Part shown: positions 1,596 to 62,908 of the stretch, piece by piece | Layout of the letters: each line of letters begins with the position of its first letter | How positions within the stretch are numbered: the first letter of the stretch is position 1 | Virus genome (UHGV): UHGV-0213393 | Reading direction: 5' to 3' (one strand) | Length of the DNA stretch: 64,000 nt | Source: a virus | Program-made: the position numbers and the translations under genes | The notes under the pieces: generated by a model | Told to the model about the DNA's origin: nothing | Databases searched by the model: none | Seen by the model: only the letters and a program-made list of their open reading frames with translations

Positions 1596-2680
1596 TGCTT
1601 GCATTTACACAACTTACATTAGTTCGAAATAAGCTAAGGGAGATTTCAGAATCTCCCTATTTTTCTAAAGACATGCATGAATATCTCGCTGTTCTACAAG
1701 AAGCAGCAGATAAGCTATATGAAAACCATGAGAAGGTTGCCGATGAAATAATTGCTGATTGTACTTTTTTTATCACCGATGCAGTTAATTTTTTCACTGG
1801 CAGTACTACAAAGAAAATTCCCTACGAGATTGTTTATTGCTTAAATGATGCCTGTAAAAAATGGATAAGTGAAAAAACACTTATTACAACGGCTCTATCG
1901 CCAGATATGAATGGGTTTTATTTTAAGTCTGTAAGTAAGAATTTCTACACTTTACTTAATGAAATTTTACATGTTAAATGCGATATCGAATTAATTCAGA
2001 TTTCATTACCTGAAATGTACCGAAGACGACCATTGTGCTCAACACCTTTATATCACGAGTTGGGCCACTTTGTTGATATTAGCAAAGGTATTTCTGAGCT
2101 TGCCAATCTAAACTTTCGTTCTATTAATCAAGGTACGCTTCCTGTGCCACATAAAGGTATTGAGTGGTCTAAATTACCTGATGTTATTTGGCTGAATCAC
2201 TGTAGGGAGTATTTTGCAGATCTTTTCAGTGCGCAATTTGTAGGGGAAAGCGGTGTGGATTTCTTATACAAATTAGCTGGTTCTCATCCTGCAAGCGAAA
2301 CTCACCCATCAACAGAAAACAGGGTTAAAGTTGTAAGCGACTTTTTGAACAAAGTGGAAAATCCAGTTATTGGCATGTTCAATGCTGTGATATCAGCCTT
2401 ACATAAGGGTGGGCAAATTATTTCTCCTTGTTTGACATTGCCGACACCTTTGCTTGATGTGAAATCAGCTTTTGATAATGTGCGTCCTTTTGTTATTCGC
2501 GACCACAATGAAATGCATGCTTTTATTAACAGCAGCTGGCAGTACTTATGCTCTGAATGGGAAAAACCTACGGGTATATGGTCTGGGTTGTCAAAAGAAG
2601 CCATAGAAAAAACTATAAATGATTTGGTTGAAAAATCGATTCGAAACGTAATGATTCTTGAAAAATGGAATGCACAATGA
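1595..2680 (+). CDS. HExxH zinc-metallopeptidase-like protein (possibly ImmA/IrrE-like)
   Basis: Single HELGH motif (PLYHELGHFVD) about residue 155; translationally coupled to both neighbours. Confidence 0.55.
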   Translation: MLAFTQLTLVRNKLREISESPYFSKDMHEYLAVLQEAADKLYENHEKVADEIIADCTFFITDAVNFFTGSTTKKIPYEIVYCLNDACKKWISEKTLITTALSPDMNGFYFKSVSKNFYTLLNEILHVKCDIELIQISLPEMYRRRPLCSTPLYHELGHFVDISKGISELANLNFRSINQGTLPVPHKGIEWSKLPDVIWLNHCREYFADLFSAQFVGESGVDFLYKLAGSHPASETHPSTENRVKVVSDFLNKVENPVIGMFNAVISALHKGGQIISPCLTLPTPLLDVKSAFDNVRPFVIRDHNEMHAFINSSWQYLCSEWEKPTGIWSGLSKEAIEKTINDLVEKSIRNVMILEKWNAQ

Positions 2681-3294
2681 ATCTCCTAAGCAAAGCTGAA
2701 TTACTGCAATATTATGAATCAGAAGAACCTGAATCGTTGTTCATTGAACCTCTTCTAAATAAAAACCAAATTGGGAACTTCACCATAGACCTTAGACTTG
2801 GTTACGATTTTTTAGTGTCTATTATGACAAGGAAGCCGTCAATAGAGTTAATTCCCTCTAAAAACAATGATACTCATCAACCAATCAGAACATTTTTCCA
2901 GGAAACAAGGAGAGATCTTGGGGATAGATTCATTGTTTACCCGAATCAAGTGGTACTGGCAACAACATTAGAATATGTTTGTTTGCCACCAGATTGCTAC
3001 GCTGATGTATTGTCCAGAAGCAGCTATACAAGGCTTGGTCTTTCATTAAATACCATGATACAACCAGGGTACAGAGGCTGTATATCTTTAGAGTTATTTA
3101 ATCATGGGAATAGCCCTGTGGAACTTATTGTTGGATCTCGCATATGTCAAATTCGTATATTCAAGAATGAAACTGTCGGTGAATACATAAGTCATGAGTC
3201 TCACAGGAAATATTTCGGAAATGTGAGGCCAACCGTCTCAGCAGCAGAAAGTGATAATGAATTAAATATGCTGGAAAAGATCCGACAAAAATGA
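2677..3294 (+). CDS. dCTP deaminase (Dcd)-like protein
   Basis: By-eye alignment to E. coli Dcd across the catalytic core: IDLRLG, SRSSYTRLGL (Ser/Arg), GYRGCISLELFNHG (Glu), ICQIRIF; ATGA start/stop overlap with upstream gene. Confidence 0.8.
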   Translation: MNLLSKAELLQYYESEEPESLFIEPLLNKNQIGNFTIDLRLGYDFLVSIMTRKPSIELIPSKNNDTHQPIRTFFQETRRDLGDRFIVYPNQVVLATTLEYVCLPPDCYADVLSRSSYTRLGLSLNTMIQPGYRGCISLELFNHGNSPVELIVGSRICQIRIFKNETVGEYISHESHRKYFGNVRPTVSAAESDNELNMLEKIRQK

Positions 3295-3382: not shown

Positions 3383-3775
3383 TTAAAAATCACCTGCGCG
3401 CTGTTTTTCAAGCACAGATTTAACATTTGGCGCTTTCCCTTTAAAAGAATGGAAAGTGCCACATTTTTCTGTTTTAACCTCGCGCAGAGCTTCGCCATCG
3501 GCGTTCTGCCATTGATGGGATAATGTCATATCACCGCGAGAAGGAACATCCAGCGAGTACAGCGTGTAAGTTCCCCCCATCTCCGCATACTACTGGAACA
3601 CATAGCTCATTACGTCAGATTCAGTTTTTCGGTGTGCGTTATCAACCTTATTCCCATTCAGAAATATGGCATCTGGATAGATTTTTATATCAAACCGACC
3701 GCACTTAACTTGTAAATTTCCGGCGCTCGCGATCAAAGGGAAAGACGCCAGTAAAGCAATAGCAAATCTTTTCAA
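3383..3775 (-). pseudogene. secreted small protein gene interrupted by an in-frame amber codon (about 3590-3592)
   Basis: Track ORFs 3590-3775 and 3383-3580 are in the same frame, separated by TAG plus three sense codons; N-terminal signal peptide MKRFAIALLASFPLIASA. Confidence 0.35.
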
Positions 3776-3795
3776 TTCTGCCTCCGCTGCGTAAC

Positions 3796-4419
3796 TTATT
3801 GCCCGTATTTTTTACACCATTGCTCTGCCATTTGTTTGGCTAAAGGCCCGGCTACTGCACTGTATTCTGCTGTTTTACTTTGCACACATGAAGCAGATGG
3901 TTTTTTATTTCGCTGCTCGGTTAGTTTGCGCTCATAAGCCATCATGCTATCGAACCCGGCAATATCACTTTGGCGAAGCATTCCCTTTTTAACCAAAAAT
4001 TGCTGCCCCTCTGGCACCAACGCAAGCATAAAAAGAGGTTGCAATAACTCACCTAATCCTTGCTGGCGATACACTTCGAATTGCTGCCATCCCTGACTTA
4101 ATCTGGAAAGAGTATCTTTGGTTGAATAACCTGTTTTTGTTATAGCTTTGTCCGTCAGATATGCTGTATATGCAAAAACGCAAAAGTCAGTTTTACCAAT
4201 AAACTGAGTTCCAACAGGCCGTAATAGAATGCCCTCCCTCTTGCAAAAGTCCATAATTGCCGCTTGTGAATGATCCCCACCAGCGTTATTCATAACCTGC
4301 TGTCCTGCCCTGAATTGTGCAGGTAACGCAGTTGCATTGGCAGTATTAACAGATACGCATCCCAACATAGCCGCGAGCGCGGCCCCTAAAACCCTTAACT
4401 TCACTACACCATCCTTCAT
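3796..4419 (-). CDS. hypothetical secreted protein (N-terminal signal peptide)
   Basis: Hydrophobic N-terminus LRVLGAALAAMLGCVSVNTANA; no recognised catalytic motif. Confidence 0.5.
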   Translation of the reverse strand: MKDGVVKLRVLGAALAAMLGCVSVNTANATALPAQFRAGQQVMNNAGGDHSQAAIMDFCKREGILLRPVGTQFIGKTDFCVFAYTAYLTDKAITKTGYSTKDTLSRLSQGWQQFEVYRQQGLGELLQPLFMLALVPEGQQFLVKKGMLRQSDIAGFDSMMAYERKLTEQRNKKPSASCVQSKTAEYSAVAGPLAKQMAEQWCKKYGQ

Positions 4420-10389: not shown

Positions 10390-11370
10390 ATGTCCCAGGA
10401 GCTACAGCAATACTTTCTACAGTCCGTTACCATCAACGGAAACAAAGTGCCCAGGGAGTGGATATTCACTGCCGTATATGTGGAAAAGGCAAACCTGCGT
10501 GCACCATTGCTGAAACTGGAAATTCACGATATTACCGGCACCATAATTGATGACTGGAAAACAAAATACGGCGCAGCACTGGTTGCAGAGATGGGTGATC
10601 CACAAGGCAATTCAGGCACGTTTAAAACAACTTTTTTCGTAACATCTGCGGTGCTGGCTGGTGATGTCATTACGGTCATTGCAGTCAGTGAAGACGTTCG
10701 GATATTTAAGATCCCCGCTCTACGGGCTAACCTGCATACAAACAAAACGCCTGATACCATTTTCAAGACGTATACCGGTACACTGAAAGTTTCCTCCAGC
10801 GCATTGAAACGAAGCTGTACGTACCATCTTTCCGCCGGGGAAAAACCCTCCAAAATGCTATCTGAAATGGCCCGCGACAAAGGCGCTTTATGCTGGGCCT
10901 GCCGTGGTCAGTTTAACTTTTATACATTAGCTGACCTTATGAAAGCTAAACCATCATTCACCTATGAAGGGAACAACCCCAGGGCGGAATACACGATTTC
11001 AAAAATGAGGCTTATACAGCAAGAGTATGCCGTTACGGCAAATACTCAGTATCGATTTACCGGCTATTCAATGACTGAAGGCTATGTCGAATATGGCGAT
11101 AGCTCACTTCCAATACGCTATATATCCGATCCGGATATGGAAACTCTGCGCAATATGCAATTGTCGCTCGTACCCAAAATGGATATTGAGGTCGCGGGTA
11201 ATCCCGACATCACGCCGGGAATGGTTATTGAGATCCTCGTGTATCGTTACGACCAGGAAAATAAGCTGGACGAATCGTTGCCTCGTAAGCTGTTGGTGAA
11301 AAACGTAGCCCATTTTGAGGACCGGATCGGCTATACAACACGAATGATATTAGGAGTACCCAACCAGTGA
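10390..11370 (+). CDS. putative baseplate hub-like protein
   Basis: Directly precedes a spike-like protein; size and position fit; no strong motif. Confidence 0.35.
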   Translation: MSQELQQYFLQSVTINGNKVPREWIFTAVYVEKANLRAPLLKLEIHDITGTIIDDWKTKYGAALVAEMGDPQGNSGTFKTTFFVTSAVLAGDVITVIAVSEDVRIFKIPALRANLHTNKTPDTIFKTYTGTLKVSSSALKRSCTYHLSAGEKPSKMLSEMARDKGALCWACRGQFNFYTLADLMKAKPSFTYEGNNPRAEYTISKMRLIQQEYAVTANTQYRFTGYSMTEGYVEYGDSSLPIRYISDPDMETLRNMQLSLVPKMDIEVAGNPDITPGMVIEILVYRYDQENKLDESLPRKLLVKNVAHFEDRIGYTTRMILGVPNQ

Positions 11371-12044
11371 AACGCAGAGCGCAAATCGTAGGGACCAAAC
11401 ACCCTGCCGGACTTATGCGAGCGCAGGTCCGCATACTGCCTGACTGGAACGGTGTACCGGATGAAGACCTCCCATGGGCAGAGTATCAAATGCCTATCGG
11501 TAACGCCTTTACACCTACAGTCAGCGGCGATTTAGTCTGGGTCGAATTTCCTTATCTGGATGCTAAAGGCAGGATAGACACGCGCCGACCTTTAATCGTT
11601 GGCGCGGCGCAGGATGCCCCAGGAGGCGTACCAAATGTGCCTCCGGAAGCCTCCGGACAAGGAAACGGATGGTCGCCAGAAGAAGTTGATGGTGCTCCTG
11701 CCCGCCCCCAGTTTTCGGCGACTGAAGATTTTGTTATTCACCGAAACAATATCCTTGAGGTCAGAACGGCTGGCGGTGGCTATGAAATAGCAAACACCGC
11801 CGCAGGATCAAGGATAGGGATGAACGAATCCGGCCAGATTTACATAATCGGCCCGGCGAATATAGTGCTTAATGCTGGAGGTGAGGTTAACGTCAAATCA
11901 AGCAGCAAAACCAATGTATCCTCAGATGGAGACGTTAATGTAAAAGGCAGCAATGTAACCGTCGCCGCTGATGGTGATATAGCCCTGAAAGCTGGTGGCG
12001 CGCTAAAAGCAACAGCGAGCAATTTCTCCTTTGTGAAGGGATAG
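11367..12044 (+). CDS. putative baseplate spike (gpV/gp5-like) protein
   Basis: C-terminal Gly/Val/Asn-rich beta-helix-like repeats (IVLNAGGEVNVKSSSKTNVSSDGDVNVKGSNVTVAADGDIALKAGG). Confidence 0.4.
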   Translation: MKRRAQIVGTKHPAGLMRAQVRILPDWNGVPDEDLPWAEYQMPIGNAFTPTVSGDLVWVEFPYLDAKGRIDTRRPLIVGAAQDAPGGVPNVPPEASGQGNGWSPEEVDGAPARPQFSATEDFVIHRNNILEVRTAGGGYEIANTAAGSRIGMNESGQIYIIGPANIVLNAGGEVNVKSSSKTNVSSDGDVNVKGSNVTVAADGDIALKAGGALKATASNFSFVKG

Positions 12045-12094: not shown

Positions 12095-13009
12095 TTGCGA
12101 AACATGAGATTAGTCGCCTTTAAAAACATATACGTCTATCGCCTTGCCCGCGAAATAAAACTGGACTCAACCACCGTTAGTGATGCCTTAAGCCAATTCA
12201 CATTCACTCCATGCGCATCACAAGAAATGGCAAAAGTCGGATGGGTGCCGGTTCTGGCTGACAACCTGATCCATGAATACCACGGTTTTCTACTTCTCCA
12301 GCAACAGCGAGAAATTAAGCTCCTGCCCTCTCATGTCATTAAGGAGGAAGTGCAGAAAAAAGTGGAAAAGCTCGAAAATGAGCAATCTCGTAAGCTGAAG
12401 AAGTCGGAAAAAAACACCCTGAAGGATGAAGTTCTCCACTCTTTGTTGCCTCGCGCATTCACTCGCAAATCATTGTCGCGAATCCTTATTGATCGCGACA
12501 ACTATCTGGTCTTCGTAGAAGCTTCCAGCGCCAGAAAAGCAGAAGAAATGCTGGCGCTCTTACGTAAATCACTTGGCAGCCTGCCAGTGATTCCATTCAC
12601 GCCGATAGAACCGCTCGAAATGACTATGACCGAATGGTTCAAGTCAACATTTCCTCAAGGCTTTAAAGCAGGCGAAGAAGCCATATTGAAATCTCTGTTC
12701 GATGACGGCGGCGCAGTTCGTTGCAAGAAAGTAGACCTACAGTCAGAGGAAATAATGACTCATATTGAAGCCGGAAAAGTTGCAACAACAGTTGCAATCA
12801 ACTGGCAGGACCGCGCGACCTTCAGGTTAAACGATGACATGAGCATCAAAGCACTGACGTTTTGCGATGATCTCTATGACCAGAACGATGACATCGACCG
12901 TGAAGATGTTGCCCAGCGATTTGATGCTGACTTCATTCTGTTCACAAGCGAATTATCCGCGATGTTTAGCTCGCTGGTGGAGGCCATTGGCGGTGAAGCA
13001 GAGCATTAA
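12095..13009 (+). CDS. rdgC: recombination-associated protein RdgC
   Basis: Near full-length by-eye alignment to E. coli RdgC (FKNIYVYRL; LKDEVLHSLLPRAF; LALLRKSLGSLPV; DREDVAQRFDADFIL). Likely ATG start at 12104. Confidence 0.85.
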   Translation: MRNMRLVAFKNIYVYRLAREIKLDSTTVSDALSQFTFTPCASQEMAKVGWVPVLADNLIHEYHGFLLLQQQREIKLLPSHVIKEEVQKKVEKLENEQSRKLKKSEKNTLKDEVLHSLLPRAFTRKSLSRILIDRDNYLVFVEASSARKAEEMLALLRKSLGSLPVIPFTPIEPLEMTMTEWFKSTFPQGFKAGEEAILKSLFDDGGAVRCKKVDLQSEEIMTHIEAGKVATTVAINWQDRATFRLNDDMSIKALTFCDDLYDQNDDIDREDVAQRFDADFILFTSELSAMFSSLVEAIGGEAEH

Positions 13010-13052: not shown

Positions 13053-13673
13053 ATGGTTTCCCCCTGGCTGGAACACGGCATTGATGCAGTCATTGTCGAT
13101 CCGCAACACCAGGAGTCCGGCAGCCAATTGATGGAGTCAGGTGCTGTACTCACACGTATCAGCGCAATTATTGACAGTGATGAGGTCTACAATTTCCTTC
13201 GGAAAAATTTGCACAGAGTTGTATTTTTAGCCGGTTTCCCTCCATGTACTGACCTGGCTGTATCTGGCGCACGCTGGTTCGCAGATAAAGCGAAAAAAGA
13301 TCCGGTTTTCCAGTTCAAAGCAATGCAGGTTGTCTGGCAGTGTTACGACATTGCAAAGATGATTGGTTGCCCGTACATGATTGAAAACCCGGTCAGCCAA
13401 ATATCGACATTCTGGCGTAAACCTGATCACATATTCCATCCTTATCACTTCACTGCATATTGCAAGGAAGACAATTACACCAAAAAAACATGCCTGTGGA
13501 GCGGACAAGGATTCATCATGCCAACTCCGCGAATCGACGAGTCGTTAGGTGATCCAGACAACCGAATACACAAGGCACCGCCAGGACCTGAAAGAGCGAA
13601 TTTTCGTAGCGCGACACCTTACGGTTTTGCAAGAGCTGTATTTGAAGCAAATAAGGAGGGAATCCGTGGCTGA
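13053..13673 (+). CDS. C5-cytosine methyltransferase-like protein (catalytic motifs only)
   Basis: GFPPCTDLAVSGA resembles motif IV (PC), MIENP resembles motif VI (ENV); a motif-I-like SLCDYTGN would need a GTG start at about 12993. No obvious target-recognition domain. Confidence 0.4.
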   Translation: MVSPWLEHGIDAVIVDPQHQESGSQLMESGAVLTRISAIIDSDEVYNFLRKNLHRVVFLAGFPPCTDLAVSGARWFADKAKKDPVFQFKAMQVVWQCYDIAKMIGCPYMIENPVSQISTFWRKPDHIFHPYHFTAYCKEDNYTKKTCLWSGQGFIMPTPRIDESLGDPDNRIHKAPPGPERANFRSATPYGFARAVFEANKEGIRG

Positions 13674-14583
13674 TATTGGTGCTAAATTTATTTCTTATAG
13701 CGACAATCATCGTCCTGCGGCGGAAGCCACTATCAGCCATATGCGACGTATTCGCTCGGAGGACGAATTTGATCGCCCCGTCTTTAAGTGGGTCGGCGGC
13801 AAATTTTCTGCACTGCCCATTATCTTCGAACACCTGCCCCACGGAAAACGGTTGATAGAACCTTTCGTTGGAGGTGGCGCTGTTTTCACTAATGCCGGAT
13901 TTAAAAGCAACCTGCTGAACGATATCAATAATGACCTGATTAACTTCTATCAGACATTGCAGCGTGAAGGGCATTCTCTTATCACACTGGCATATCGTTT
14001 TTTTCAGGATTACAACTCTGCTGATGCATTTTTGAATGTTCGCAATGCATTCAACAATGGTGCTTATGATTCCCTTCACCATGCAGCGGCGTTCCTGTAT
14101 CTCAATCGTCATTGTTTTAATGGCGTCACTCGCTATAACCGTAAAGGAGAGTTCAACGTCGGATATGGAAAGCAGAAATCCCCCCACTTCCCTCTCGCGG
14201 AAATGGAGGCGTTCCTGGCTGACGATATTTCAAAGTATTCGGAATTTGTGTCCGGCGATTTTGCTGGTGTAATTGAGGCTGCAGGGAATGATGATGTGAT
14301 TTTCTGCGATCCCCCCTATGAACCATTGCCCGACACTACCGGATTTACAAATTACTCAGGGCATAGCTTTAGGTTTGAAGATCAACAACGGCTGGTGTCA
14401 CTGCTGGTGGATGCCCACAGACGCGGAGCGAAAATTGTGATAACAAACAGTGGTGCGCCTAACATTCGCGAACTTTACGTTGGCAATGGCTTCAAGGTGT
14501 ATCCTATGCCATCCCGTCGCTCTGTATCCTGTAAAGCATCAACCCGAATGATAGCTAACGACATTATAGCCACGCTCAATTAA
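13666..14583 (+). CDS. dam: Dam-family N6-adenine DNA methyltransferase
   Basis: KWVGGK, EPFVGGGAV, NDINNDLINFY, CDPPY all present and co-linear with E. coli Dam; GTG start after AAGGAGGG RBS. Confidence 0.8.
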   Translation: MADIGAKFISYSDNHRPAAEATISHMRRIRSEDEFDRPVFKWVGGKFSALPIIFEHLPHGKRLIEPFVGGGAVFTNAGFKSNLLNDINNDLINFYQTLQREGHSLITLAYRFFQDYNSADAFLNVRNAFNNGAYDSLHHAAAFLYLNRHCFNGVTRYNRKGEFNVGYGKQKSPHFPLAEMEAFLADDISKYSEFVSGDFAGVIEAAGNDDVIFCDPPYEPLPDTTGFTNYSGHSFRFEDQQRLVSLLVDAHRRGAKIVITNSGAPNIRELYVGNGFKVYPMPSRRSVSCKASTRMIANDIIATLN

Positions 14584-14717: not shown

Positions 14718-15005
14718 TCATTTTGTATCCTCAGACTCTGCAAGCATGAGGATAGCATGGCGGATCATATTCAATTTGCTGCGATTATGCTTTTTGCTTA
14801 ACGCATCAAGTACCTGGTACTCGTATTCATTGAAGCCAACACGAATGGATTTAAAATCACGTGGGGCGTCCTTATCGAGCACTTTGTTGTCTTCTGGTTG
14901 CTCACCCGGCACCAAATCAGCCTTACTGGCAAAATCCTCAATTCGGCGTTCAAGATCGGGGTCTTTTACTTCGGGGGCTTTTACCGATTTACGAGGCTTA
15001 ATCAC
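14718..15005 (-). CDS. ParG-like ribbon-helix-helix partition/centromere-binding protein
   Basis: Small basic protein immediately downstream of and overlapping the ParA-type ATPase gene. Confidence 0.5.
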   Translation of the reverse strand: MIKPRKSVKAPEVKDPDLERRIEDFASKADLVPGEQPEDNKVLDKDAPRDFKSIRVGFNEYEYQVLDALSKKHNRSKLNMIRHAILMLAESEDTK

Positions 15006-15639
15006 TTAATAACTCCTTAACCAACATCTGGATTTCACCTTTAGCTTTCCCGTTGTCCATCTCAACAACGCCCTTCCCTTCAGCCATGCAATCGCGGTAA
15101 ACCTTACGATCACGAATGATGGTTTTCAGCAACTTCAGTTGCGGATATTCAGCCAGGTACTCTTTGGCCTCATTGGTTTCATTCACAACCGGATTGGATG
15201 GGGCCATTGTTAAGACTGCGAACGCCTTAATGCTAGGATTAGGCATCAGGTCCAAAGCCTCTTCAAACACTTCAACAAAGTGTGCCAGCGTGTCTAAATC
15301 TGGTTGAGATGGTCTAAATGGGACCAACACAATATCTGCAGCGGTTATGCCTGTACGCATCTCTTTGCTATCGCGCCCGGCTGTATCAACAACTACAAAT
15401 TCATAACGCTTATCCAGATCGAGAAGTGTTTCTCGAATATTACCAAACTTCTGGACACAATGAATTACAGGAGAAACCTCTGCCGTGTTACGGTCAGCTG
15501 CCCAGCGGGCAGCTGTTCCTTGCTTGTCTGCATCTAGTAACACTACATCCTTATTTTCGCGGGCAAGCTCCGCACAGATGTTTACGCTTGTGGTTGATTT
15601 TCCACAGCCACCTTTTTGGCTGACTACCAATATAATCAT
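14998..15639 (-). CDS. parA: ParA/ParF-type partition ATPase
   Basis: Deviant Walker A KGGCGKST at the N-terminus; size typical of small type-Ib ParA. Confidence 0.85.
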   Translation of the reverse strand: MIILVVSQKGGCGKSTTSVNICAELARENKDVVLLDADKQGTAARWAADRNTAEVSPVIHCVQKFGNIRETLLDLDKRYEFVVVDTAGRDSKEMRTGITAADIVLVPFRPSQPDLDTLAHFVEVFEEALDLMPNPSIKAFAVLTMAPSNPVVNETNEAKEYLAEYPQLKLLKTIIRDRKVYRDCMAEGKGVVEMDNGKAKGEIQMLVKELLSD

Positions 15640-16300: not shown

Positions 16301-17260
16301 TCAACCGATAGATTTTAGACCATAGACAAGAGCAAGTTGTGGATCATCAGCAACGAAAAACCTATCGTCACGAATGTTTACCTGCTCACGGATAGCATCA
16401 GCAACAAGCGGCGCGCCGCCACCAATGACCATAACATGCGTGTATCCTTTGAAATCACTGATCACATCCAGTACGCGTGTACGGAGTCGTTCTATGCTTG
16501 ACGAAATGGCTTTCTTAACATCATCAATAGCAGACGGATCGTTAATATTGTCGGTCAAATAATCCTCATCATCACGATTAATGATTAATTGATCGACATT
16601 ATAATTAGAGGTTTCGGTATTCGCTTTTGCAAGTGCCTGTCTGACCTCTTTAGTTACCAGCGAAACGCCGAGATTAGAATCGCCAAATACGCGAGAAACG
16701 GCGGTCATTTGCCCGGCGACCATCGACACATCCAGAGTAGTCCCACCAAGATCAACAATAAGCACAGAATGCGCTGGCACAAGGCTGTCGCACAGACCGA
16801 TCCCTGCGGGTATTGACTCCGGGCGCACAGTCACTTTTTTGATAGTAAAAACCTGACCTTTGTTAAGGGTGACTGGTCGCATCAGGCTGGCCTTTTTCCG
16901 CTCAATATTTTTCATGTTGTATTGTGCGTCGTCGTCATAAAACTCTGCCAGTGGCAACGTGACAACTATTTCCACTTCTTGAGGCTCAATGCCACTTGTA
17001 AGCAGGGCATGATGAACAGCAAGCACATTAAGCGGGCTGTATTGCCATTCAACGTTATTCGTCGGCAGCACATCCGGCGAGATCAAGTCATATGAATATT
17101 TTTCGTCATCAATGATGTAGTTAAACGGCTTTCCTGCGCCAAATGTGGCGGACCATCCACGTTTAAAACTGTTCGGACAGATATGGGTTCGAGTTTCCCC
17201 GTCTTGTTCCCACAGCATTTTGATATTGGTAGAACCATCGTCGATAAAAATGCGCATCAT
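16301..17260 (-). CDS. parM: ParM actin-like plasmid segregation ATPase
   Basis: MMRIFIDDGSTNIK and NVLAVHHALLTSG match the R1 ParM N-terminal and phosphate-binding regions; start placed at the MM codons rather than the upstream track start. Confidence 0.85.
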   Translation of the reverse strand: MMRIFIDDGSTNIKMLWEQDGETRTHICPNSFKRGWSATFGAGKPFNYIIDDEKYSYDLISPDVLPTNNVEWQYSPLNVLAVHHALLTSGIEPQEVEIVVTLPLAEFYDDDAQYNMKNIERKKASLMRPVTLNKGQVFTIKKVTVRPESIPAGIGLCDSLVPAHSVLIVDLGGTTLDVSMVAGQMTAVSRVFGDSNLGVSLVTKEVRQALAKANTETSNYNVDQLIINRDDEDYLTDNINDPSAIDDVKKAISSSIERLRTRVLDVISDFKGYTHVMVIGGGAPLVADAIREQVNIRDDRFFVADDPQLALVYGLKSIG

Positions 17261-17329
17261 ATTGCTCCACTTCTGAGACACATTTGAGAAAGAATTGAAT
17301 TTTATATGAGAAAACAAAATAAGACCAGA

Positions 17330-26101: not shown

Positions 26102-26653
26102 ATGACACCTTCTGAACTATTAGAAAGCGTTAAAGCGCGATTCAATCCTCTTCTTGTACGGGAAGAGGAGACACTGAAAGCATTCCTGATCAAAGCATTG
26201 ACTACTTACCAGGACAGAGCGGGAGTAGTGAAGGCATTAAAGCTGGAGAAAGCAGACGGTACGGCGATCCCTGTTCCGGATGATTATCTGTCTCTGATCC
26301 ACGTCACTGACCACAACGGACTTCTGGTTTACGCCGACGAGATTGCCGGTTTTGTCGAACTTGAGCTTACCGGTTCTGAACGCTGGCCTTTCAAGATGCA
26401 ATACCTTGTAAATCTCCGCGATCGCAACCTGGATGAGTGGCAAGTTCCACCTGCGATTATCGGAATGCTTGAGGAATATCTTGAAGCACTTATCAATGTC
26501 CGCAACGTTGCCCGCCAGCGAAGGGCGTCAATTGATGGCAAGTTTGATTACTCCGATCTTCCTGATGAGGCGACGCTCTACGCGCGTGTTCAGGAGATAG
26601 AAGAAAAAATGGCAGCCAACCGGGCCATTATCCCTGGTGCTACCATTTTTTAA
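26102..26653 (+). CDS. hypothetical tail protein
   Basis: ORF in the structural operon. Confidence 0.45.
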   Translation: MTPSELLESVKARFNPLLVREEETLKAFLIKALTTYQDRAGVVKALKLEKADGTAIPVPDDYLSLIHVTDHNGLLVYADEIAGFVELELTGSERWPFKMQYLVNLRDRNLDEWQVPPAIIGMLEEYLEALINVRNVARQRRASIDGKFDYSDLPDEATLYARVQEIEEKMAANRAIIPGATIF

Positions 26654-26666
26654 CACGGAGGGCTAC

Positions 26667-27374
26667 GTGAGTATTTTTAGTGCTGCAACGCAAACGCTAG
26701 CCAGTGCGGTATCGTTTAGCGCGAAATCGTTCACCAGCAACCTTATCAGCGACATTCTGGATAGAGCGGTGTCTGGCAGTGGCGTTAGTGGGAGCTATGG
26801 CAATGACATCGCTTACGGAAAGAACGTAGTTGCTACGGCTATGCGTATCCGCTATGCCCAGGGCTGGCAGTGGACGGTAGATGTAGACGGATTAAGCGGC
26901 TTTGATATGTTCGTTAAGGACATAACTTACAGTAGCGGGAATATTGAAACAGAAAGCAAAATCATTGGTAGCGTCGAGTTCAATAAGCCAACGCACGTAA
27001 CCGCCGGACCGGTAACAATGACGGTCAGAGACACAGAAGACGGCAAAATAATGAATTGGTTCAAGGAGCGCCGCGCCCGTGTAACCAATAGCGATGGTAC
27101 GCTAAACCTGCCGCCAGATTATCTCATGAATATCAGGCTATACCGCGTTACACAGGAAGGCGGGAAAGAGCTGGAAGAGGAAATGCGTGTATTTCCTACT
27201 CAGATAGGAGAGATCAGCCGCTCACGTGATCAGGTGTCCGAATTCTTGTCCTATCCGATCACGTTCCAGCGATACACATCTGCTGGTTCCGGCCTGTCCG
27301 CATTAGTCAATGGAGCTGCTGGTTTAGCAACAAGCGCACTTAAAAGCGCCGCCAGCAACGTGATCAAGTTTTGA
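26667..27374 (+). CDS. hypothetical tail protein
   Basis: GTG start after GGAGGG RBS; overlaps upstream gene end. Confidence 0.4.
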   Translation: MSIFSAATQTLASAVSFSAKSFTSNLISDILDRAVSGSGVSGSYGNDIAYGKNVVATAMRIRYAQGWQWTVDVDGLSGFDMFVKDITYSSGNIETESKIIGSVEFNKPTHVTAGPVTMTVRDTEDGKIMNWFKERRARVTNSDGTLNLPPDYLMNIRLYRVTQEGGKELEEEMRVFPTQIGEISRSRDQVSEFLSYPITFQRYTSAGSGLSALVNGAAGLATSALKSAASNVIKF

Positions 27375-27725
27375 AATGCAATATTAAAGTGCGAGAAGGT
27401 GGGGAAGGGGCAAACTTGAGGGCAATTTCTACACCTGCTGTTTACGTCAATGATGGCATTTTTTACACATCACAACAAAATCAATGAGTTACATTCAAAA
27501 AACACTTAACAGGTGTGCTATAAAAATAGCTATAACATACGATGCTATCTGAGGGTGATTTTTACACATTACTTATTAATCAATAAATTACAAATGATGT
27601 TAGCCGTTAAAGCTCCAACCAACTCACTAATGGTGTAAGAATTGCCCTCAATCTCCCATCTTTAAGGGCAAATCCTACACCTACAGAGAGGTGTAGAAAT
27701 TGCCCTTAAGACTGCTGATGGAGAA

Positions 27726-27956
27726 ATGTTGACTATAGTCGAAATGGCTTACAACTAATGTTGACTGTACTCGATACCGATCACAAAACATTGACTACAC
27801 ACGACAAGAAATGAGGAAAGATTGACTATAAGCGACAAATACTCAATGAAATAGCTGGTTTATCCATTGATCATGTGAAAAAGTTAATAACTAAATCCGC
27901 CAGCATCAATGTTTGTCGCGTATAGTCAACGCTTGGAATCGCACACAGTCAATGTT
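27726..27956. repeat. incA-like iteron array downstream of repA (about six copies, both orientations)
   Basis: Units of the TGTTGACTATAGTCG type, same core as the upstream iterons. Confidence 0.55.
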
Positions 27957-28839
27957 ATGGATTTCGTTTATGGATCTGGAAACCTATTTTCCGACCATTC
28001 TTTATCTCTGAAAATTTAAGATATTCAACAGCTTCCAAGTCTTTCATGGCTTTACGAATCACACTGTTCTGAACGCTAACCGATGATTTGAGGTTCAATC
28101 TGGCGCGAAGGCGCTCAATACTCACTGGCGCAGGGTTTGAAGGTAACGCTTCGAAAAACGTATAAAGCACCTTGGCTGTCTCTTTCCTGCCAAGTTTATC
28201 GAGCATTTTGAGCTTCAATATTCGCTTATAGTCAACGTAATACAACTCAGACAACTGCTTCTGCGGTTGGATTCTTATAATGTCATTTTCAGTATCAAGT
28301 TCACTAAATGCCAATAAATTCATCTGGATATAACGAACATGTTCTTTGCTGGTGGGCAAGTTGAACTTCAGCAACGTCTGCTGAATACGCGTTAGAGAGT
28401 CGCCAATGCTCTTGCGAAAAGCCTTGGACAGCCGCTTCCTTGGATAACCGCAACGATCCACAAATTCAGAGAATGTCAGGGTGATCACACCATCATTATC
28501 TGGTTTATAGTCAAACAATGCAGATGTAATGCCTATCCACACCTTAAAATCAGTATCCATATCCAGCCGTGGCCCATGAATCTCAATACCCTGATACCCT
28601 TCCTGCTCTACAATCTTCAGGCTGGACAGTTCTTCTGTCGCATCAGTGGAGTTAGTTAAACCGGCGTTCTTGCGACGTAAAGCAACACTGGTAGATTTCA
28701 ATGTGGGAACAAACACCCCAAGCCGCAACAAAGCTATCGGCTGAATAGTGCTATTATTGTTAGGCTTTAAGCTGTGGATTTCTCCGGTATTCCCTGATAT
28801 TTCCTCAACGTTCAGAAAGCCTTTTTTGTCATCTACCAT
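27955..28839 (-). CDS. repA: RepA iteron-binding replication initiator (P1/RepFIB-type)
   Basis: Flanked by iteron arrays; N-terminal STIQPIALLRLGVFVP resembles P1 RepA as I recall it. Confidence 0.8.
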   Translation of the reverse strand: MVDDKKGFLNVEEISGNTGEIHSLKPNNNSTIQPIALLRLGVFVPTLKSTSVALRRKNAGLTNSTDATEELSSLKIVEQEGYQGIEIHGPRLDMDTDFKVWIGITSALFDYKPDNDGVITLTFSEFVDRCGYPRKRLSKAFRKSIGDSLTRIQQTLLKFNLPTSKEHVRYIQMNLLAFSELDTENDIIRIQPQKQLSELYYVDYKRILKLKMLDKLGRKETAKVLYTFFEALPSNPAPVSIERLRARLNLKSSVSVQNSVIRKAMKDLEAVEYLKFSEIKNGRKIGFQIHKRNP

Positions 28840-28879
28840 CCTGTTATTTCCTTGATTGACGGGGCTTTATAGCCAAATG

Positions 28880-29130
28880 AAAGATACTTATCCACAGCCG
28901 TCTGAGGGCTGAGAGAATTATCGCATACAGTCAATGTTTATATCGCATATAGTCAACATTAAATCGCGTACAGTCAACATTAAATCGCACATAGTCAACA
29001 TTAAATCGCACATAGTCAATGTTGATCTCCATTTAGGCCAGTGATGGCGCGGCTCGCAGCGATCCGGGATCTTCTTTGGATCTTACTGGTTCTCTTTGGG
29101 ATCTATTTATTGGATCTACCCTGTGGATAA
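28880..29130. other. oriR-like origin: DnaA box, five iterons, GATC cluster, second DnaA box
   Basis: TTATCCACA at about 28887; six GATC sites between about 29024 and 29115; TGTGGATAA at about 29121. Confidence 0.55.
28919..29024. repeat. incC-like iterons: five tandem 21-bp direct repeats (ATCGCACATAGTCAACATTAA consensus)
   Basis: Five contiguous units read directly from the sequence, immediately upstream of repA. Confidence 0.7.
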
Positions 29131-29203
29131 ATAGGTTAAAGTCAAAATCACACACTCCCTATCCTCCAGCCAAACGAGTACCGACTTTTCTGGAGGAATC
29201 CTT

Positions 29204-30023
29204 GAACATTCCCAAATTCCCATTACCTTCACAGCCTGAAATAGAAATTCAGTTTCATGCACCTACTGTGAAAGATGCCCTGAAATATTCAGACATCAAT
29301 CCGGCAGAAGACGAGGCAACCACAACAGAATACCTCAACGCCATGCAAGATGGCGAAATTAACGACAGCTCAAACTGGACAGTTCAGGATCGCAGAACCG
29401 CGCTATGGTGGATCTTTGTCAATTCCAGACCAGATGCCGTAATGACTTACTCATACGAGTGTGGTCACTGTGGAAACGTTCATCACGCAGATATTAACCT
29501 TTCAGACCTTGCCGAAACGGTAGAAATCCTGACTGTCCCGCCGTTTATTAAAACTATGGTCCCTATAAACGGAGTACCAACCGAGTGGACGCTTAAACCA
29601 CTAACAGGGAAAGGCGCTGAATTGCTTGAACGTATGCGCGCCACTTTGCCTGATATGAAAACTCCAGAGTACAGTGCTGAGGTTGCTCGTCTCCGCATAG
29701 CTGAGTTGGCCTTGTGTACATCTCTGAACGACGATCCAGAAGACTTCACACAAGCTGCAAACAGACGATTCGATATCATTGAAAACATGGCACTGGAAAC
29801 CGAGTTTACCCCTCTGGTAGCTCGCATTCAGCTCATGCAGAAAGACCTTCGCCACGGCTTAAAAATGGCTATTGAACGAGGCACAAGCCGCCTGATCCTA
29901 CCGCCACAACGCTGCAAAAACGCTAAGGAGGGTGCAGACGTGACTACCACGCTGTACGCCCCATTTCTCAATAGAGAGTTTATCCCATCAATTAGATCTG
30001 AATGGATGGCTAACCATTATTAA
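29204..30023 (+). CDS. hypothetical protein with CxxC pair
   Basis: Track ORF starts at 29076 inside the origin; the likely start is the TTG after GGAGGA RBS at about 29204. Confidence 0.35.
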
Positions 30024-52762: not shown

Positions 52763-53401
52763 TGTTGCGATTGACTGTACAATAACCGTGCGGCGGGAAT
52801 TTCATCGCTCGAAAATGTATGTTAGAAAATTAAATTGATGTTTCTAATCAAGAATGTATGATTTACATCGTCACAAAAAAACAGCATCTGATAAAAATTC
52901 TGTTGATCTTTCTAATGTTCAGGCTTATATTCATGCCGTCGTAGCAAATTCTGCGACCAGGTTTGACAGCCTGAATGTTAGTGCGGACAACCGCAGATTT
53001 CCGATATTGCGGTATTTTTGTGTCCGTAAACCGCGTTACGCCCGAATTATGGTGGGGCGTGATGGGGAGGCTTCGGCCTGCTGGTTTCACTAACGCCAGT
53101 CTGTCAACCCTGTCACGTCCTGCCACCTGTTTGACAGCGGGTAGCAGGTTGTTAAACCTGTTAGTGAGGCCGTAACTATGGTTAATGCCAATCCTTGCTC
53201 ACGTCCAGAATTCATCTGGCGTTTCCACTCCCTGCAAAAACACTGCGATCACTTCGCAATTGCCGCAACCGAAAAAGAAGCCCGTTCTCTGATCCCTGAT
53301 CAATATGGTGTTCTTACTGGTCGTTTCTCTACTTCCCCACAACCAAACACTAATCCCTGGTATCGCAATATTACCAATCCCGGCATTGCGGAGGCTCACT
53401 G

Positions 53402-62473: not shown

Positions 62474-62908
62474 ATGACGACATTAATTGACACTGTAAAA
62501 CCGACGGAATCCTACCTTGAGGACATTTTGCCGCAGGCGCTCAATGGCAGGAGTGAAGAGGCGTTTCTGGATGCATATCTGGATGGCATGGCGGAAAGGC
62601 TGAAAAGAGATCCACAGCTTTATCATCTTTATGGGCCGTGGTGGCCTGCGCTTAAAACGTTATTGCTGGAGCGTGGCGACATATCATTTGGACAAGTTGT
62701 AGATAGTGATGTGGCAGAAATCTACAAAATGAGTCGCCCGGCGCTTACGGTTTTAGCCGGGCATCTGTATTCGAGCGATCGCCTGGAAAATGACGCGGTA
62801 TACAATCCCGTTCATGCTCTGGAAGTCGCGCCTTATGCTGATGATACAGAGCCATACGTATACACAAGTTACGACGAATCTATAGAGAAATATCGAATCG
62901 TGGGGTAG
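62474..62908 (+). CDS. hypothetical protein
   Basis: ORF after the darB-like gene. Confidence 0.45.
   Translation: MTTLIDTVKPTESYLEDILPQALNGRSEEAFLDAYLDGMAERLKRDPQLYHLYGPWWPALKTLLLERGDISFGQVVDSDVAEIYKMSRPALTVLAGHLYSSDRLENDAVYNPVHALEVAPYADDTEPYVYTSYDESIEKYRIVG

What the first reader, a model, noticed from the sequence alone, without database searches (positions are those of the whole stretch)
27726..29130. Complete P1-type iteron replicon embedded between tail genes
repA (minus strand) is flanked upstream by a DnaA box, five tandem 21-bp iterons and six GATC sites within about 90 bp plus a second DnaA box, and downstream by about six iterons in both orientations. This is the oriR/incC/repA/incA layout described for P1 (from memory). 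It sits inside the structural gene region, and the track ORF at 29076 reads through the GATC cluster, so its real start is probably downstream.
Basis: partly seen in the sequence, partly recalled or inferred. Interest (0 to 1): 0.45.

Follow-up and report, generated by a model that had tools for sequence, protein, structure and literature searches.

The report
Swapped-in P1-family plasmid replicon
This is an intact plasmid replication unit of the phage P1 family in a D6-like phage-plasmid, sitting where D6 relatives normally carry an unrelated F-plasmid-type unit, so it is an ordinary kind of origin that arrived by a clean module swap.

Summary
repA (27955-28839, minus strand) is preceded by a perfect DnaA box, five iterons at 21-22 bp spacing, six GATC sites in 93 bp and a second perfect DnaA box. 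It is followed by four inverted and two direct iterons. The order matches the annotated P1 oriR/incC/repA/incA record. RepA is 41% identical to P1 RepA. The DnaA-box/GATC part of the origin aligns with P1 oriR at about 76%.

The closest relative is the "p0111" replicon of P1-like phage-plasmids (RCS47, SJ46), not P1 itself. RepA is 85% identical and the iteron core is the same.

The window is a D6-group phage-plasmid. The tub|pmgB gap is that group's normal replicon site, but D6 and about 100 PLSDB plasmids carry an unrelated RepE-like replicon there. Here 27720-29144 has replaced it. Left behind are the last 14 nt of the old repA and its six-iteron downstream array (27418-27707), now without an initiator.

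The same junction occurs in a backbone only about 75% identical, so the cassette has moved between lineages. The orphan array is eroding in most swapped relatives.

This is a known kind of system, and interest is modest.

The parts
26637..27374 (+). Left flanking gene: tail-tube gene tub (mechanical ORF; RefSeq relatives annotate a 708-nt CDS ending at the same stop)
   Evidence: Homologue of D6 orf43, 'similar to P1 gene tub'.
27418..27707 (.). Orphan array of six D6-type (RepE-like replicon) iterons. Cores: 27418-34 (+), 27452-68 (+), 27551-67 (+), 27633-49 (-), 27664-80 (+), 27691-707 (-).
   Evidence: The number, order and orientation match the array downstream of repA in all 8 sampled plasmids that still have the D6-type replicon. 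No cognate RepE-like gene is found in the window or in the complete relative.
27706..27719 (-). Remnant of the displaced D6-type repA: its last 14 nt (..Q Q S stop). This is the left recombination junction.
   Evidence: Homology to NZ_LR890273 (L005) runs to 27719, which is 14 nt inside that plasmid's repA CDS.
27720..29144 (.). Swapped-in p0111-like replicon cassette (1425 bp). It replaces 1070 bp of D6-type repA plus origin.
   Evidence: Flanks are 97-99% identical to L005, while the interior has no similarity to L005 or D6. The same junction is present in CP042620, whose backbone is about 75% identical.
27725..27838 (-). Distal part of the incA-like control array: four iterons inverted relative to the origin iterons (cores 27728-42, 27760-74, 27790-804, 27821-35; 30-32 bp spacing)
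   Evidence: P1 incA copies 1-6 have the same inverted orientation and 30-31 bp spacing.
27913..27956 (+). Proximal part of the incA-like array: two iterons in the origin orientation (cores 27916-30, 27939-53). The second abuts the repA stop codon.
   Evidence: P1 incA copies 7-9 are likewise direct, and copy 9 abuts the repA stop.
27955..28839 (-). repA, 294 aa: iteron-binding initiator of the P1 RepA / RepFIB family
   Evidence: Pfam Rep3_C 26.5 bits, above the cutoff. 85% aa identity to p0111-type RepA and 41% to P1 RepA. dN/dS 0.036 against RCS47. The predicted fold matches RctB, RepE, pi and pPS10 RepA.
28222..28236 (+). Iteron-like site inside the repA coding sequence (TCGCTTATAGTCAAC)
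   Evidence: The 15-mer is identical in RCS47, L006 and L010. It lies in the third-longest fully conserved run in the three-way repA alignment.
28888..28896 (+). repA-proximal DnaA box, perfect TTATCCACA
   Evidence: It is one of only two perfect boxes in the 64-kb window.
28918..29023 (+). Five tandem origin iterons (incC-like), spaced 22/21/21/21 bp. On the repA strand each carries TTGACT, a 5/6 match to the -35 consensus.
29024..29116 (.). GATC-rich heptamer region, the presumed Dam-dependent unwinding and sequestration zone: six GATC sites
   Evidence: Four GATC positions are shared with P1 oriR. This stretch and the distal DnaA box are about 76% identical to P1.
29122..29130 (-). Distal DnaA box, perfect (TGTGGATAA on the + strand)
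   Evidence: It aligns with the P1 and RCS47 distal DnaA boxes.
29202..30023 (+). Right flanking gene: pmgB homologue with its true start at TTG 29202 (273 aa), not 29076
   Evidence: SD GGAGG lies at 29192-29196.

Best explanation
Window 27720-29144 is the functional low-copy plasmid-maintenance replicon of a D6-group (P1-g2) phage-plasmid of Escherichia. It belongs to the P1 RepA family and is a sister lineage of the 'p0111' replicon of P1-like phage-plasmids.

Inferred mechanism, by homology with P1 and from established knowledge rather than tested here:
- RepA monomers bind the five origin iterons.
- Together with host DnaA at the two flanking boxes, they open the adjacent GATC-heptamer region.
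- That region must be Dam-methylated. While hemimethylated after firing, it is sequestered, which blocks immediate re-initiation.
- RepA bound at the origin iterons represses its own promoter.
- The six downstream iterons titrate RepA and pair with (handcuff) the origin, keeping copy number low.

Shown here, on history: the unit entered by replacing the RepE-like (F/IncFIA-related) replicon that D6 and about 100 related plasmids carry in the same tub|pmgB gap. One junction lies 14 nt inside the old repA. The old replicon's six-iteron downstream array was left behind without an initiator. The cassette then spread between D6-group backbones, probably by recombination in the conserved flanks (inferred).

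Partition is supplied elsewhere: ParM at 16301-17317 and a small ParA-like ATPase at 14998-15639.

Same order as the annotated P1 record:
- incA has 6 inverted and 3 direct iterons, followed by repA, 5 incC iterons, 5 Dam sites and DnaA binding.

Homology:
- RepA is 41% identical to P1 RepA, E 2e-70, and 85% identical to RCS47/SJ46/JL22 RepA.
- The origin's host-factor module aligns across the window, RCS47 and P1. blastn gives 76.5% identity to P1 over 98 bp.
- The iteron core is the same as in RCS47.

Fold:
- The top PDB hits are RctB, RepE, pi, pPS10 RepA and TrfA.

Functionality:
- dN/dS is 0.036.
- It is the only plasmid initiator in the complete 94-kb relative NZ_CP085065, which otherwise has only repL.
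- The same cassette is found on six complete circular plasmids of about 94 kb among 5426 E. coli genomes.

Swap:
- Flanks are 97-99% identical to NZ_LR890273, which carries a 756-nt D6-type repA in the same gap.
- D6 RepA shows no BLASTP similarity to the window RepA. It scores 280 bits on the NCBIfam RepE model.
- An identical left junction occurs in CP042620, where the cassette is 95% identical but the tail-gene flank to the left only 75% and the flank to the right 76%.
- In PLSDB, 98 records carry the D6-type replicon over at least 80% of its length, against 2 with this cassette.
- The next RepA relative (76% identity) sits in a repA, 257-aa gene, parA, parB context like P1-like elements. 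This points to a P1-g1-type donor.
Against: - Nothing was tested functionally. Replication, Dam and DnaA dependence, autoregulation and handcuffing are all inferred from P1.
- The consensus promoter scan found no sigma-70 promoter in the iterons, so the repA promoter is not located.
- Pfam Rep3_N is just below its cutoff (20.4 against 22.4 bits), and no NCBIfam model hits RepA.
- The structure model is only moderately confident (pLDDT 68.6; residues 1-70 disordered), and whole-chain TM-scores to the initiators are low at 0.3-0.4.
- The control array has 6 iterons against 9 in P1 and 7 in RCS47, so copy control may differ.
- The donor of the cassette was not found. Nothing between 85% and 100% RepA identity exists in the databases searched.
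Confidence: 0.85

Rival explanations
1. The unit is a decayed or silent relic, and the plasmid is maintained by another replicon (for example the lytic repL replicon or an unrecognised origin).
For: No functional test was done, no promoter was found by the scan, and only 64 of about 92-94 kb is in the window.
Against: - repA is full length and under strong purifying selection (dN/dS 0.036).
- All origin elements are intact and conserved across three lineages.
- The complete relative NZ_CP085065 has no other plasmid initiator and no D6-type RepA.
- Six complete circular plasmids carry it as their only rep.
Confidence: 0.05
2. It is simply the native D6-family replicon, with no exchange having taken place.
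For: D6 itself has a Rep3-family repA with iterons on both sides at exactly this position.
Against: - D6 RepA (251 aa, RepE-like) and the window RepA share no detectable sequence similarity.
- The iterons are different.
- Homology to a 97-99% identical sister plasmid stops at 27719 and resumes at 29145.
- A 14-nt stub of the D6-type repA and its downstream iterons remain.
Confidence: 0.02
3. The retained D6-type iteron array (27418-27707) is not junk. It is kept as an incompatibility or exclusion determinant that titrates or handcuffs the RepE-like initiator of competing D6-type phage-plasmids.
For: - In this window all six iterons are intact, in the same order and orientation as in the 8 sampled plasmids that still have the cognate initiator.
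- From established knowledge, cloned control arrays of P1 (incA) and F (incC) exert incompatibility in trans.
Against: - Three of the four distinct swapped lineages have lost one or two of the six iterons by repeat-mediated deletion, and two copies also carry point changes. None of the 8 unswapped plasmids has any loss. A Fisher exact test computed by hand gives p about 0.02, but the lineages are not fully independent.
- That pattern fits relaxed selection.
Confidence: 0.2
4. It is a RepFIB replicon captured from an IncF conjugative plasmid, as several GenBank annotations ('RepFIB replication protein A') suggest.
For: Annotators label the 85%-identical homologues RepFIB. The wider family hits at about 45% identity include RepFIB-named proteins.
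Against: - Identity to the broad RepFIB-like set is only 43-49%, against 85% to p0111-type RepA.
- The origin's DnaA-box/GATC module is homologous to P1 oriR.
- The nearest relatives sit in P1-like contexts next to parAB.
Confidence: 0.03

Closest known systems
p0111-type replicon of P1-like (P1-g1) phage-plasmids (RCS47, SJ46, JL22; PlasmidFinder type p0111)
   Same: - RepA has the same length (294 aa) and is 85% identical.
- The iteron core TCGCRYAYAGTCAAY is the same.
- Both have five origin iterons and six GATC sites.
- The distal DnaA box is at the same place.
- The internal iteron inside repA is identical.
- Both have distal-inverted plus proximal-direct control iterons.
   Different: - Nucleotide identity is only 78%, which I would expect to fall below usual replicon-typing thresholds.
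- MOB-suite gives this unit its own rep_cluster_2164.
- It has 4 rather than 5 inverted control iterons.
- Its proximal DnaA box is perfect; RCS47's has one mismatch.
- It sits between tub and pmgB in a D6-group backbone. The p0111 unit sits between upfA and parAB, with the GIY-YIG gene lying between repA and parA. This unit has no GIY-YIG gene and no adjacent parAB.
P1 plasmid (R) replicon: oriR/incC-repA-incA (IncY)
   Same: - The order and orientation of all parts are the same.
- RepA is 41% identical over 271 aa.
- The GATC-heptamer/DnaA-box/GC-rich module is about 76% identical, with four of five GATC positions shared.
- The last control iteron abuts the repA stop in both.
   Different: - The iteron sequences are unrelated: P1 has GATGTGTGCTGGAGGGAAA. 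Initiator specificity, and so incompatibility group, should therefore differ.
- There are 6 rather than 9 control iterons.
- P1 has no internal repA iteron at up to 4 mismatches.
- P1 has parA-parB immediately downstream; this unit does not.
Native replicon of phage D6 and D6-like plasmids (RepE-like; MOB-suite rep_cluster_1704, typed in one record as 'IncFIA,rep_cluster_1704')
   Same: - It occupies the same tub|pmgB gap in the same orientation.
- The general plan is the same: tandem iterons upstream, a mixed-orientation array downstream and one iteron inside the rep gene.
- Both initiators belong to the Rep3 winged-helix class.
   Different: - The initiators show no detectable sequence similarity.
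- The D6 type scores 280 bits on the RepE model.
- The iterons are different (GAGGGCAAnnnnTACAC).
- In the window only its downstream array and 14 nt of its repA survive.

Membership tests
P1 RepA-family iteron replicon (P1 oriR type) | Initiator homologous to P1 RepA | tested here: met
   BLASTP gives 41% identity over 271 aa, E 2e-70. tblastn hits P1 and P7 repA.
P1 RepA-family iteron replicon (P1 oriR type) | Five tandem iterons at about 21-bp phasing immediately upstream of repA | tested here: met
   Cores at 28921, 28943, 28964, 28985 and 29006. P1 incC iterons lie at 62688, 62710, 62731, 62752 and 62773.
P1 RepA-family iteron replicon (P1 oriR type) | Cluster of GATC (Dam) sites in heptamer repeats beyond the iterons, bounded by DnaA box(es) | tested here: met
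   There are six GATC sites in 93 bp, and a perfect DnaA box at 29122-30. The stretch aligns with P1 oriR at 76.5%.
P1 RepA-family iteron replicon (P1 oriR type) | Downstream control array (incA) with distal inverted and proximal direct iterons | tested here: met
   The window has 4 inverted at about 31-bp spacing plus 2 direct. P1 has 6 inverted plus 3 direct.
P1 RepA-family iteron replicon (P1 oriR type) | Iterons of P1 sequence, i.e. IncY specificity | tested here: not met
   The P1 iteron GATGTGTGCTGGAGGGAAA is unrelated to the window iteron sequence. The window-type iteron pattern finds no iteron in the P1 replicon, only one 3-mismatch hit in parA, outside the iteron arrays. This unit is therefore a family member but not IncY.
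P1 RepA-family iteron replicon (P1 oriR type) | Adjacent parA-parB-parS partition operon | tested here: not met
   Downstream of the control array lie orphan D6-type iterons and then tub. ParM and a ParA-like ATPase lie 10-13 kb away. Partition is not part of the minimal replicon.
P1 RepA-family iteron replicon (P1 oriR type) | Autonomous, RepA-, DnaA- and Dam-dependent replication; copy control by iterons | not testable with these tools
   This needs cloning and genetics.
p0111 replicon type | Near-identity of the rep gene to the p0111 reference, as required by typing schemes | tested here: not met
   Identity to RCS47/SJ46-type replicons is 77.6-77.9% nt and 85% aa. No intermediate sequences were found. 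It is a sister lineage rather than a member.
p0111 replicon type | Same iteron recognition sequence | tested here: met
   The core TCGCRYAYAGTCAAY is shared, and 11-12 sites lie in the same arrangement. Cross-incompatibility is inferred, not tested.
Rep3 / winged-helix (WH1-WH2) iteron initiators | Rep3 domains and two-winged-helix fold | tested here: met
   Pfam Rep3_C scores 26.5 bits against a cutoff of 21.1. Rep3_N scores 20.4, just under its cutoff of 22.4. Foldseek top hits are RctB (E 3e-8), RepE (9e-6), pi, pPS10 RepA WH1 (TMt 0.60) and TrfA. The model has pLDDT 68.6.
D6-type (RepE-like) replicon | RepE-like initiator gene | tested here: not met
   tblastn of D6 RepA finds nothing in the window or in the complete relative. 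Only a 14-nt 3' stub remains.
D6-type (RepE-like) replicon | D6-type iterons | tested here: met
   The six downstream-array iterons are present at 27418-27707. The five origin iterons are absent.

The most novel reading that the evidence does not exclude
The tub|pmgB gap of D6-group phage-plasmids is a replicon-exchange slot. Here an F RepE-like replicon was replaced by a P1/p0111-like one. In this element the still-intact six-iteron control array of the displaced replicon would act as a one-way incompatibility weapon, depressing replication of any incoming D6-type phage-plasmid while the carrier's own replication is immune.
Probability: 0.2. Interest if true: 0.45.

Novelty: new member of a known kind. 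Interest (0 to 1): 0.27.

Why it matters
It does not reveal a new mechanism. The value is modest, and it lies in three points.

- **A clean, base-pair-resolved case of replicon exchange.** Both junctions, a stub of the old initiator gene and an orphaned control array are visible in a phage-plasmid. This is the process that Pfeifer et al. proposed lets such elements escape incompatibility (PMC10879196, PMC7969092).
- **The dimorphism extends to the D6 group.** The two-replicon pattern known for P1-like elements (IncY versus p0111) also exists in D6-like elements, as RepE-like versus p0111-like. The variant is rare: 2 of about 100 PLSDB records and 6 of 5426 complete E. coli genomes.
- **Practical effect on typing.** These plasmids would probably be missed or mis-typed by replicon-typing schemes. 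Judging from the shared iteron core, they may be incompatible with p0111-type P1-like plasmids.

Tried and rejected
- **Promoter and terminator scan of 27300-29300.** It found no promoter in the iterons, so the repA promoter is unresolved. By eye, TTGACT in each iteron followed 17 nt later by GACTAT is only a weak candidate.
- **NCBIfam scan of RepA.** No family matched.
- **Sequence search of RepA against PDB.** No relative was found. The fold search was needed instead.
- **"Two places per record".** I checked whether this meant a second replicon. It is only an iteron-offset self-match.
- **D6-type RepA elsewhere.** I looked in the window and in the complete relative and found none.
- **Donor of the cassette.** I searched the 5.8-billion-protein set and IMG/VR. 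Nothing lies between 85% and 100% identity. A 76% relative sits next to parAB.
- **Mobile-element signatures at the cassette ends.** By inspecting the junction alignment, I saw no target duplication or terminal repeats.
- **Key papers.** Gilcrease & Casjens 2018 (D6 genome) and Lobocka 2004 (P1 genome) are not held in the library. Whether the D6 paper already mentions this variant therefore could not be checked.
- **Literature search for rep_cluster_2164.** It returned nothing.
- **Co-occurrence with p0111 plasmids in E. coli genomes.** None was observed, but only about 0.45 was expected, so this is uninformative.
Full report
**1. The observation**

Reading 27300-29700 and listing ORFs shows a 294-aa ORF on the minus strand at 27955-28839. 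Upstream of it, at higher coordinates, lie these elements in order:
- a perfect DnaA box, TTATCCACA, at 28888-28896;
- five tandem repeats with cores at 28921, 28943, 28964, 28985 and 29006, spaced 22/21/21/21 bp;
- six GATC sites at 29024, 29061, 29068, 29079, 29100 and 29113;
- a second perfect DnaA box at 29122-29130 on the other strand.

These are the only two perfect DnaA 9-mers in the 64-kb window. The GATC cluster is the densest in the window: six in 93 bp, against a mean of 0.36 per 100 bp and a next-best cluster of four.

Downstream of repA there are four copies of the same repeat in inverted orientation (cores 27728, 27760, 27790, 27821; about 31-bp spacing). Two further copies lie in direct orientation (27916, 27939), and the last abuts the repA stop codon.

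The degenerate iteron pattern gives 12 hits in the window against 1.55 expected from shuffles. All 12 lie in 27728-29020. The twelfth lies inside repA at 28222-28236.

**2. Comparison with P1 itself**

The richly annotated P1 record AF234172 lists, in the same order and orientation:
- parB and parA;
- incA (nine RepA-binding iterons);
- repA;
- incC/oriR (five iterons at 21-22 bp);
- five Dam methylation sites;
- a DnaA-binding site.

My scan of that sequence shows incA copies 1-6 inverted and copies 7-9 direct relative to incC, at 30-31 bp spacing. The window has the same arrangement with 4 + 2 copies.

RepA is 41% identical to P1 RepA over 271 residues, E 2e-70. blastn and a three-way alignment show that the distal DnaA box, the GATC heptamers and the following GC-rich stretch are homologous to P1 oriR, at 76.5% over 98 bp. 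Four GATC positions are shared. The iterons themselves are unrelated in sequence to P1's.

"P1-type" is thus supported by homology as well as by layout, but the initiator specificity is not P1's.

**3. Closest relatives**
- Megablast and tblastn place the unit next to the replicon of RCS47, SJ46, JL22 and hundreds of P1-like E. coli and Salmonella plasmids, at 77.6-77.9% nt and 85% aa. The literature calls this the p0111 replicon type of P1-like phage-plasmids, the alternative to IncY (PMC9603915, PMC11165635, PMC7969092).
- RCS47 has the same iteron core, five origin iterons, six GATC sites, the distal DnaA box, 5 + 2 control iterons and the identical internal iteron.
- dN/dS between the window and RCS47 repA is 0.036, with synonymous sites saturated. 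The gene is therefore under strong purifying selection.
- A search of 5.8 billion proteins and of IMG/VR found the window's RepA at 100% identity, the p0111 cluster at 85%, two metagenomic relatives at 76-80%, and then a gap to 53% and to the broad RepFIB-like family at about 45%.
- The 76% relative lies in a repA, 257-aa gene, parA, parB context, as in P1-like elements.
- No solved structure is detectable by sequence.
- An AlphaFold model (pLDDT 68.6, with the N-terminal 70 residues disordered) finds RctB, RepE, pi, pPS10 RepA and TrfA as its best PDB matches. All of these are iteron-binding initiators.
- Pfam Rep3_C is above its threshold and Rep3_N is just below.

**4. What the window is, and why the position is not odd**

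The surrounding 20 kb is collinear with phage D6 at about 73-81% identity. It is 97-99% identical to a set of E. coli and E. marmotae plasmids of about 90-94 kb.

In D6 the annotated plasmid replication gene (orf42) lies in exactly this gap, between tub (orf43) and pmgB (orf41). Pfeifer et al. note that in the D6 subgroup (P1-g2) replication and partition genes are separated by 14 persistent genes (PMC7969092).

In the window, ParM is at 16301-17317 and a small ParA-like ATPase at 14998-15639. A replicon "between tail genes" is therefore the rule for this group.

**5. The replicon is not the group's native one**
- D6 RepA (251 aa) has no BLASTP similarity to the window's RepA. It scores 280 bits on NCBIfam's RepE model. 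MOB-suite types such plasmids rep_cluster_1704, and in one record as 'IncFIA,rep_cluster_1704'.
- The sister plasmid NZ_LR890273 is 97-99% identical on both sides and carries that D6-type repA.
- Its homology to the window ends at 27719 and resumes at 29145. The 1425 bp in between replace 1070 bp of D6-type repA plus origin.
- The left junction lies 14 nt inside the old repA. The window keeps ..CAG CAG TCT TAA (Q Q S stop) at 27706-27719.
These are the D6-type iterons. D6 and all seven other D6-type plasmids sampled have the same six copies in the same +,+,+,-,+,- order downstream of their repA. D6 and NZ_LR890273, the two scanned further, also have five tandem copies upstream of it.
- The window has no D6-type initiator, and neither does the complete 94-kb relative NZ_CP085065. 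That plasmid's only replication genes are this repA and a lytic repL.

**6. Spread and rarity**
- In PLSDB, 98 records carry the D6-type replicon over at least 80% of its length. Only two carry this cassette, NZ_CP085065 and CP042620.
- Six of 5426 complete E. coli genomes have it, all on plasmids of about 94 kb.
- CP042620 has a D6-proper backbone that is only 75% identical to the window in the tail genes to the left (76% in the 29145-29300 flank). It has the same left junction, and its cassette is 95% identical.
- The cassette therefore moved between diverged D6-group backbones after a single founding event. Homologous recombination in the flanks is the probable route (inference).

**7. Fate of the orphan array**

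All eight unswapped plasmids have six downstream iterons. Among the swapped elements:
- the window has all six intact;
- the NZ_CP085065 lineage has lost one, through an 88-bp repeat-mediated deletion of 27471-27558, and some members also carry a core point mutation;
- IMG/VR contig L014 has lost two and mutated one;
- CP042620 has lost two.

Three of four swapped lineages are eroded, against none of eight unswapped. A Fisher exact test gives p of about 0.02 by my own hand calculation, and the lineages are not fully independent. This favours relaxed selection: the array is a relic. It argues against, but does not exclude, a retained role in excluding D6-type competitors.

**8. Mechanism**

Shown here:
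- the parts, their arrangement and their homology to P1 and p0111;
- the integrity of repA and the purifying selection on it;
- that it is the sole plasmid initiator.

Inferred from established knowledge of P1 (my own knowledge, plus the functional notes in AF234172):
- RepA monomers bind the five origin iterons.
- With DnaA at the flanking boxes, they open the GATC-heptamer region.
- Dam methylation is required, and hemimethylated DNA is sequestered after firing.
- RepA represses its own promoter within the iterons.
- The downstream iterons titrate RepA and handcuff the origin.

The element encodes its own D12-class adenine methyltransferase at 13549-14583, which may contribute to methylation.

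The repA promoter was not located. Because the iteron core is shared with p0111 plasmids, cross-incompatibility with them is likely, as is compatibility with IncY P1. Neither is tested.

**9. The neighbouring ORF**

The mechanical ORF 29076-30023 reads through the GATC cluster. Homology to D6 PmgB (90% identity) begins at its residue 43, which is TTG 29202 preceded by GGAGG. RefSeq and the D6 record start the gene there. In the sister plasmid the upstream frame contains stop codons.

**10. Verdict**

It is a sister lineage of the known p0111 replicon, sitting in the standard replicon slot of D6-group phage-plasmids after displacing an F RepE-like replicon. The kind of system is well known, and the sequence is already in RefSeq as a generic "RepB family" initiator.

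I could not find three things described:
- the exchange itself;
- its base-pair-resolved junctions;
- the orphaned control array.

Novelty: a new member of a known kind. Interest: modest.

Noticed in passing
window 28222-28236 (inside repA): The iteron-like 15-mer TCGCTTATAGTCAAC lies within the repA coding sequence (codons V-D-Y-K-R). It is identical in the window, CP042620, RCS47 and a 76%-identity metagenomic relative, although synonymous sites are saturated. It sits in the third-longest invariant run of the gene. The amino acids are not conserved in P1 RepA, and P1 has no such internal site. The unrelated D6-type repA also has one iteron inside its coding sequence (L002 11284-11300). It may be an extra regulatory RepA-binding site.
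   Followed up: partly
window 27418-27707: The six D6-type iterons lack their initiator gene. The window holds the only intact copy of this orphan array among the swapped elements examined. Relatives show repeat-mediated deletions of 88 bp (27471-27558) or 46 bp (27652-27697).
   Followed up: yes
window 52925-52977 and 53045-53130 (+): Rfam matches above the gathering scores to the a1/b1 targets (RF03163, 54.4 bits) and the C4 antisense RNA (RF01695, 68.8 bits). This is the P1-type immI immunity RNA system.
   Followed up: no
window 13549-14583 (+): The ORF has a D12-class N6-adenine DNA methyltransferase domain (Pfam PF02086, E 2e-53), next to RdgC (12095-13009). A phage-borne Dam-like enzyme could methylate the GATC cluster of the plasmid origin.
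   Followed up: no
window 14998-15639 (-) and 16301-17317 (-): Two different partition ATPases lie within 2.5 kb: a small ParA/MinD-like protein (213 aa) and a ParM actin-like protein (338 aa as the ORF is called). They are 10-13 kb away from the replicon rather than next to it as in P1.
   Followed up: no
L004 2462-3271 (RCS47) and L007 462-1271 (NZ_CP062860): In p0111-type P1-like plasmids a GIY-YIG nuclease family gene sits between repA with its control iterons and parA. It is absent from P1 and from the window. A homing-type nuclease beside a replicon that is exchanged between elements is suggestive.
   Followed up: no
L002 (D6) 10770-11525 versus L005 (NZ_LR890273) 3408-4163: The RepE-like RepA of D6 and that of the window's sister plasmid differ at only 5 of 251 residues, although their tail-gene backbones are only about 73-81% identical at the nucleotide level. 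The D6-type replicon may therefore also be exchanged between backbones.
   Followed up: partly
window 2665-3294 (+): The ORF has a dCTP deaminase/dUTPase-like domain (Pfam DCD, E 1e-30). It is an auxiliary nucleotide-metabolism gene on the phage-plasmid.
   Followed up: no
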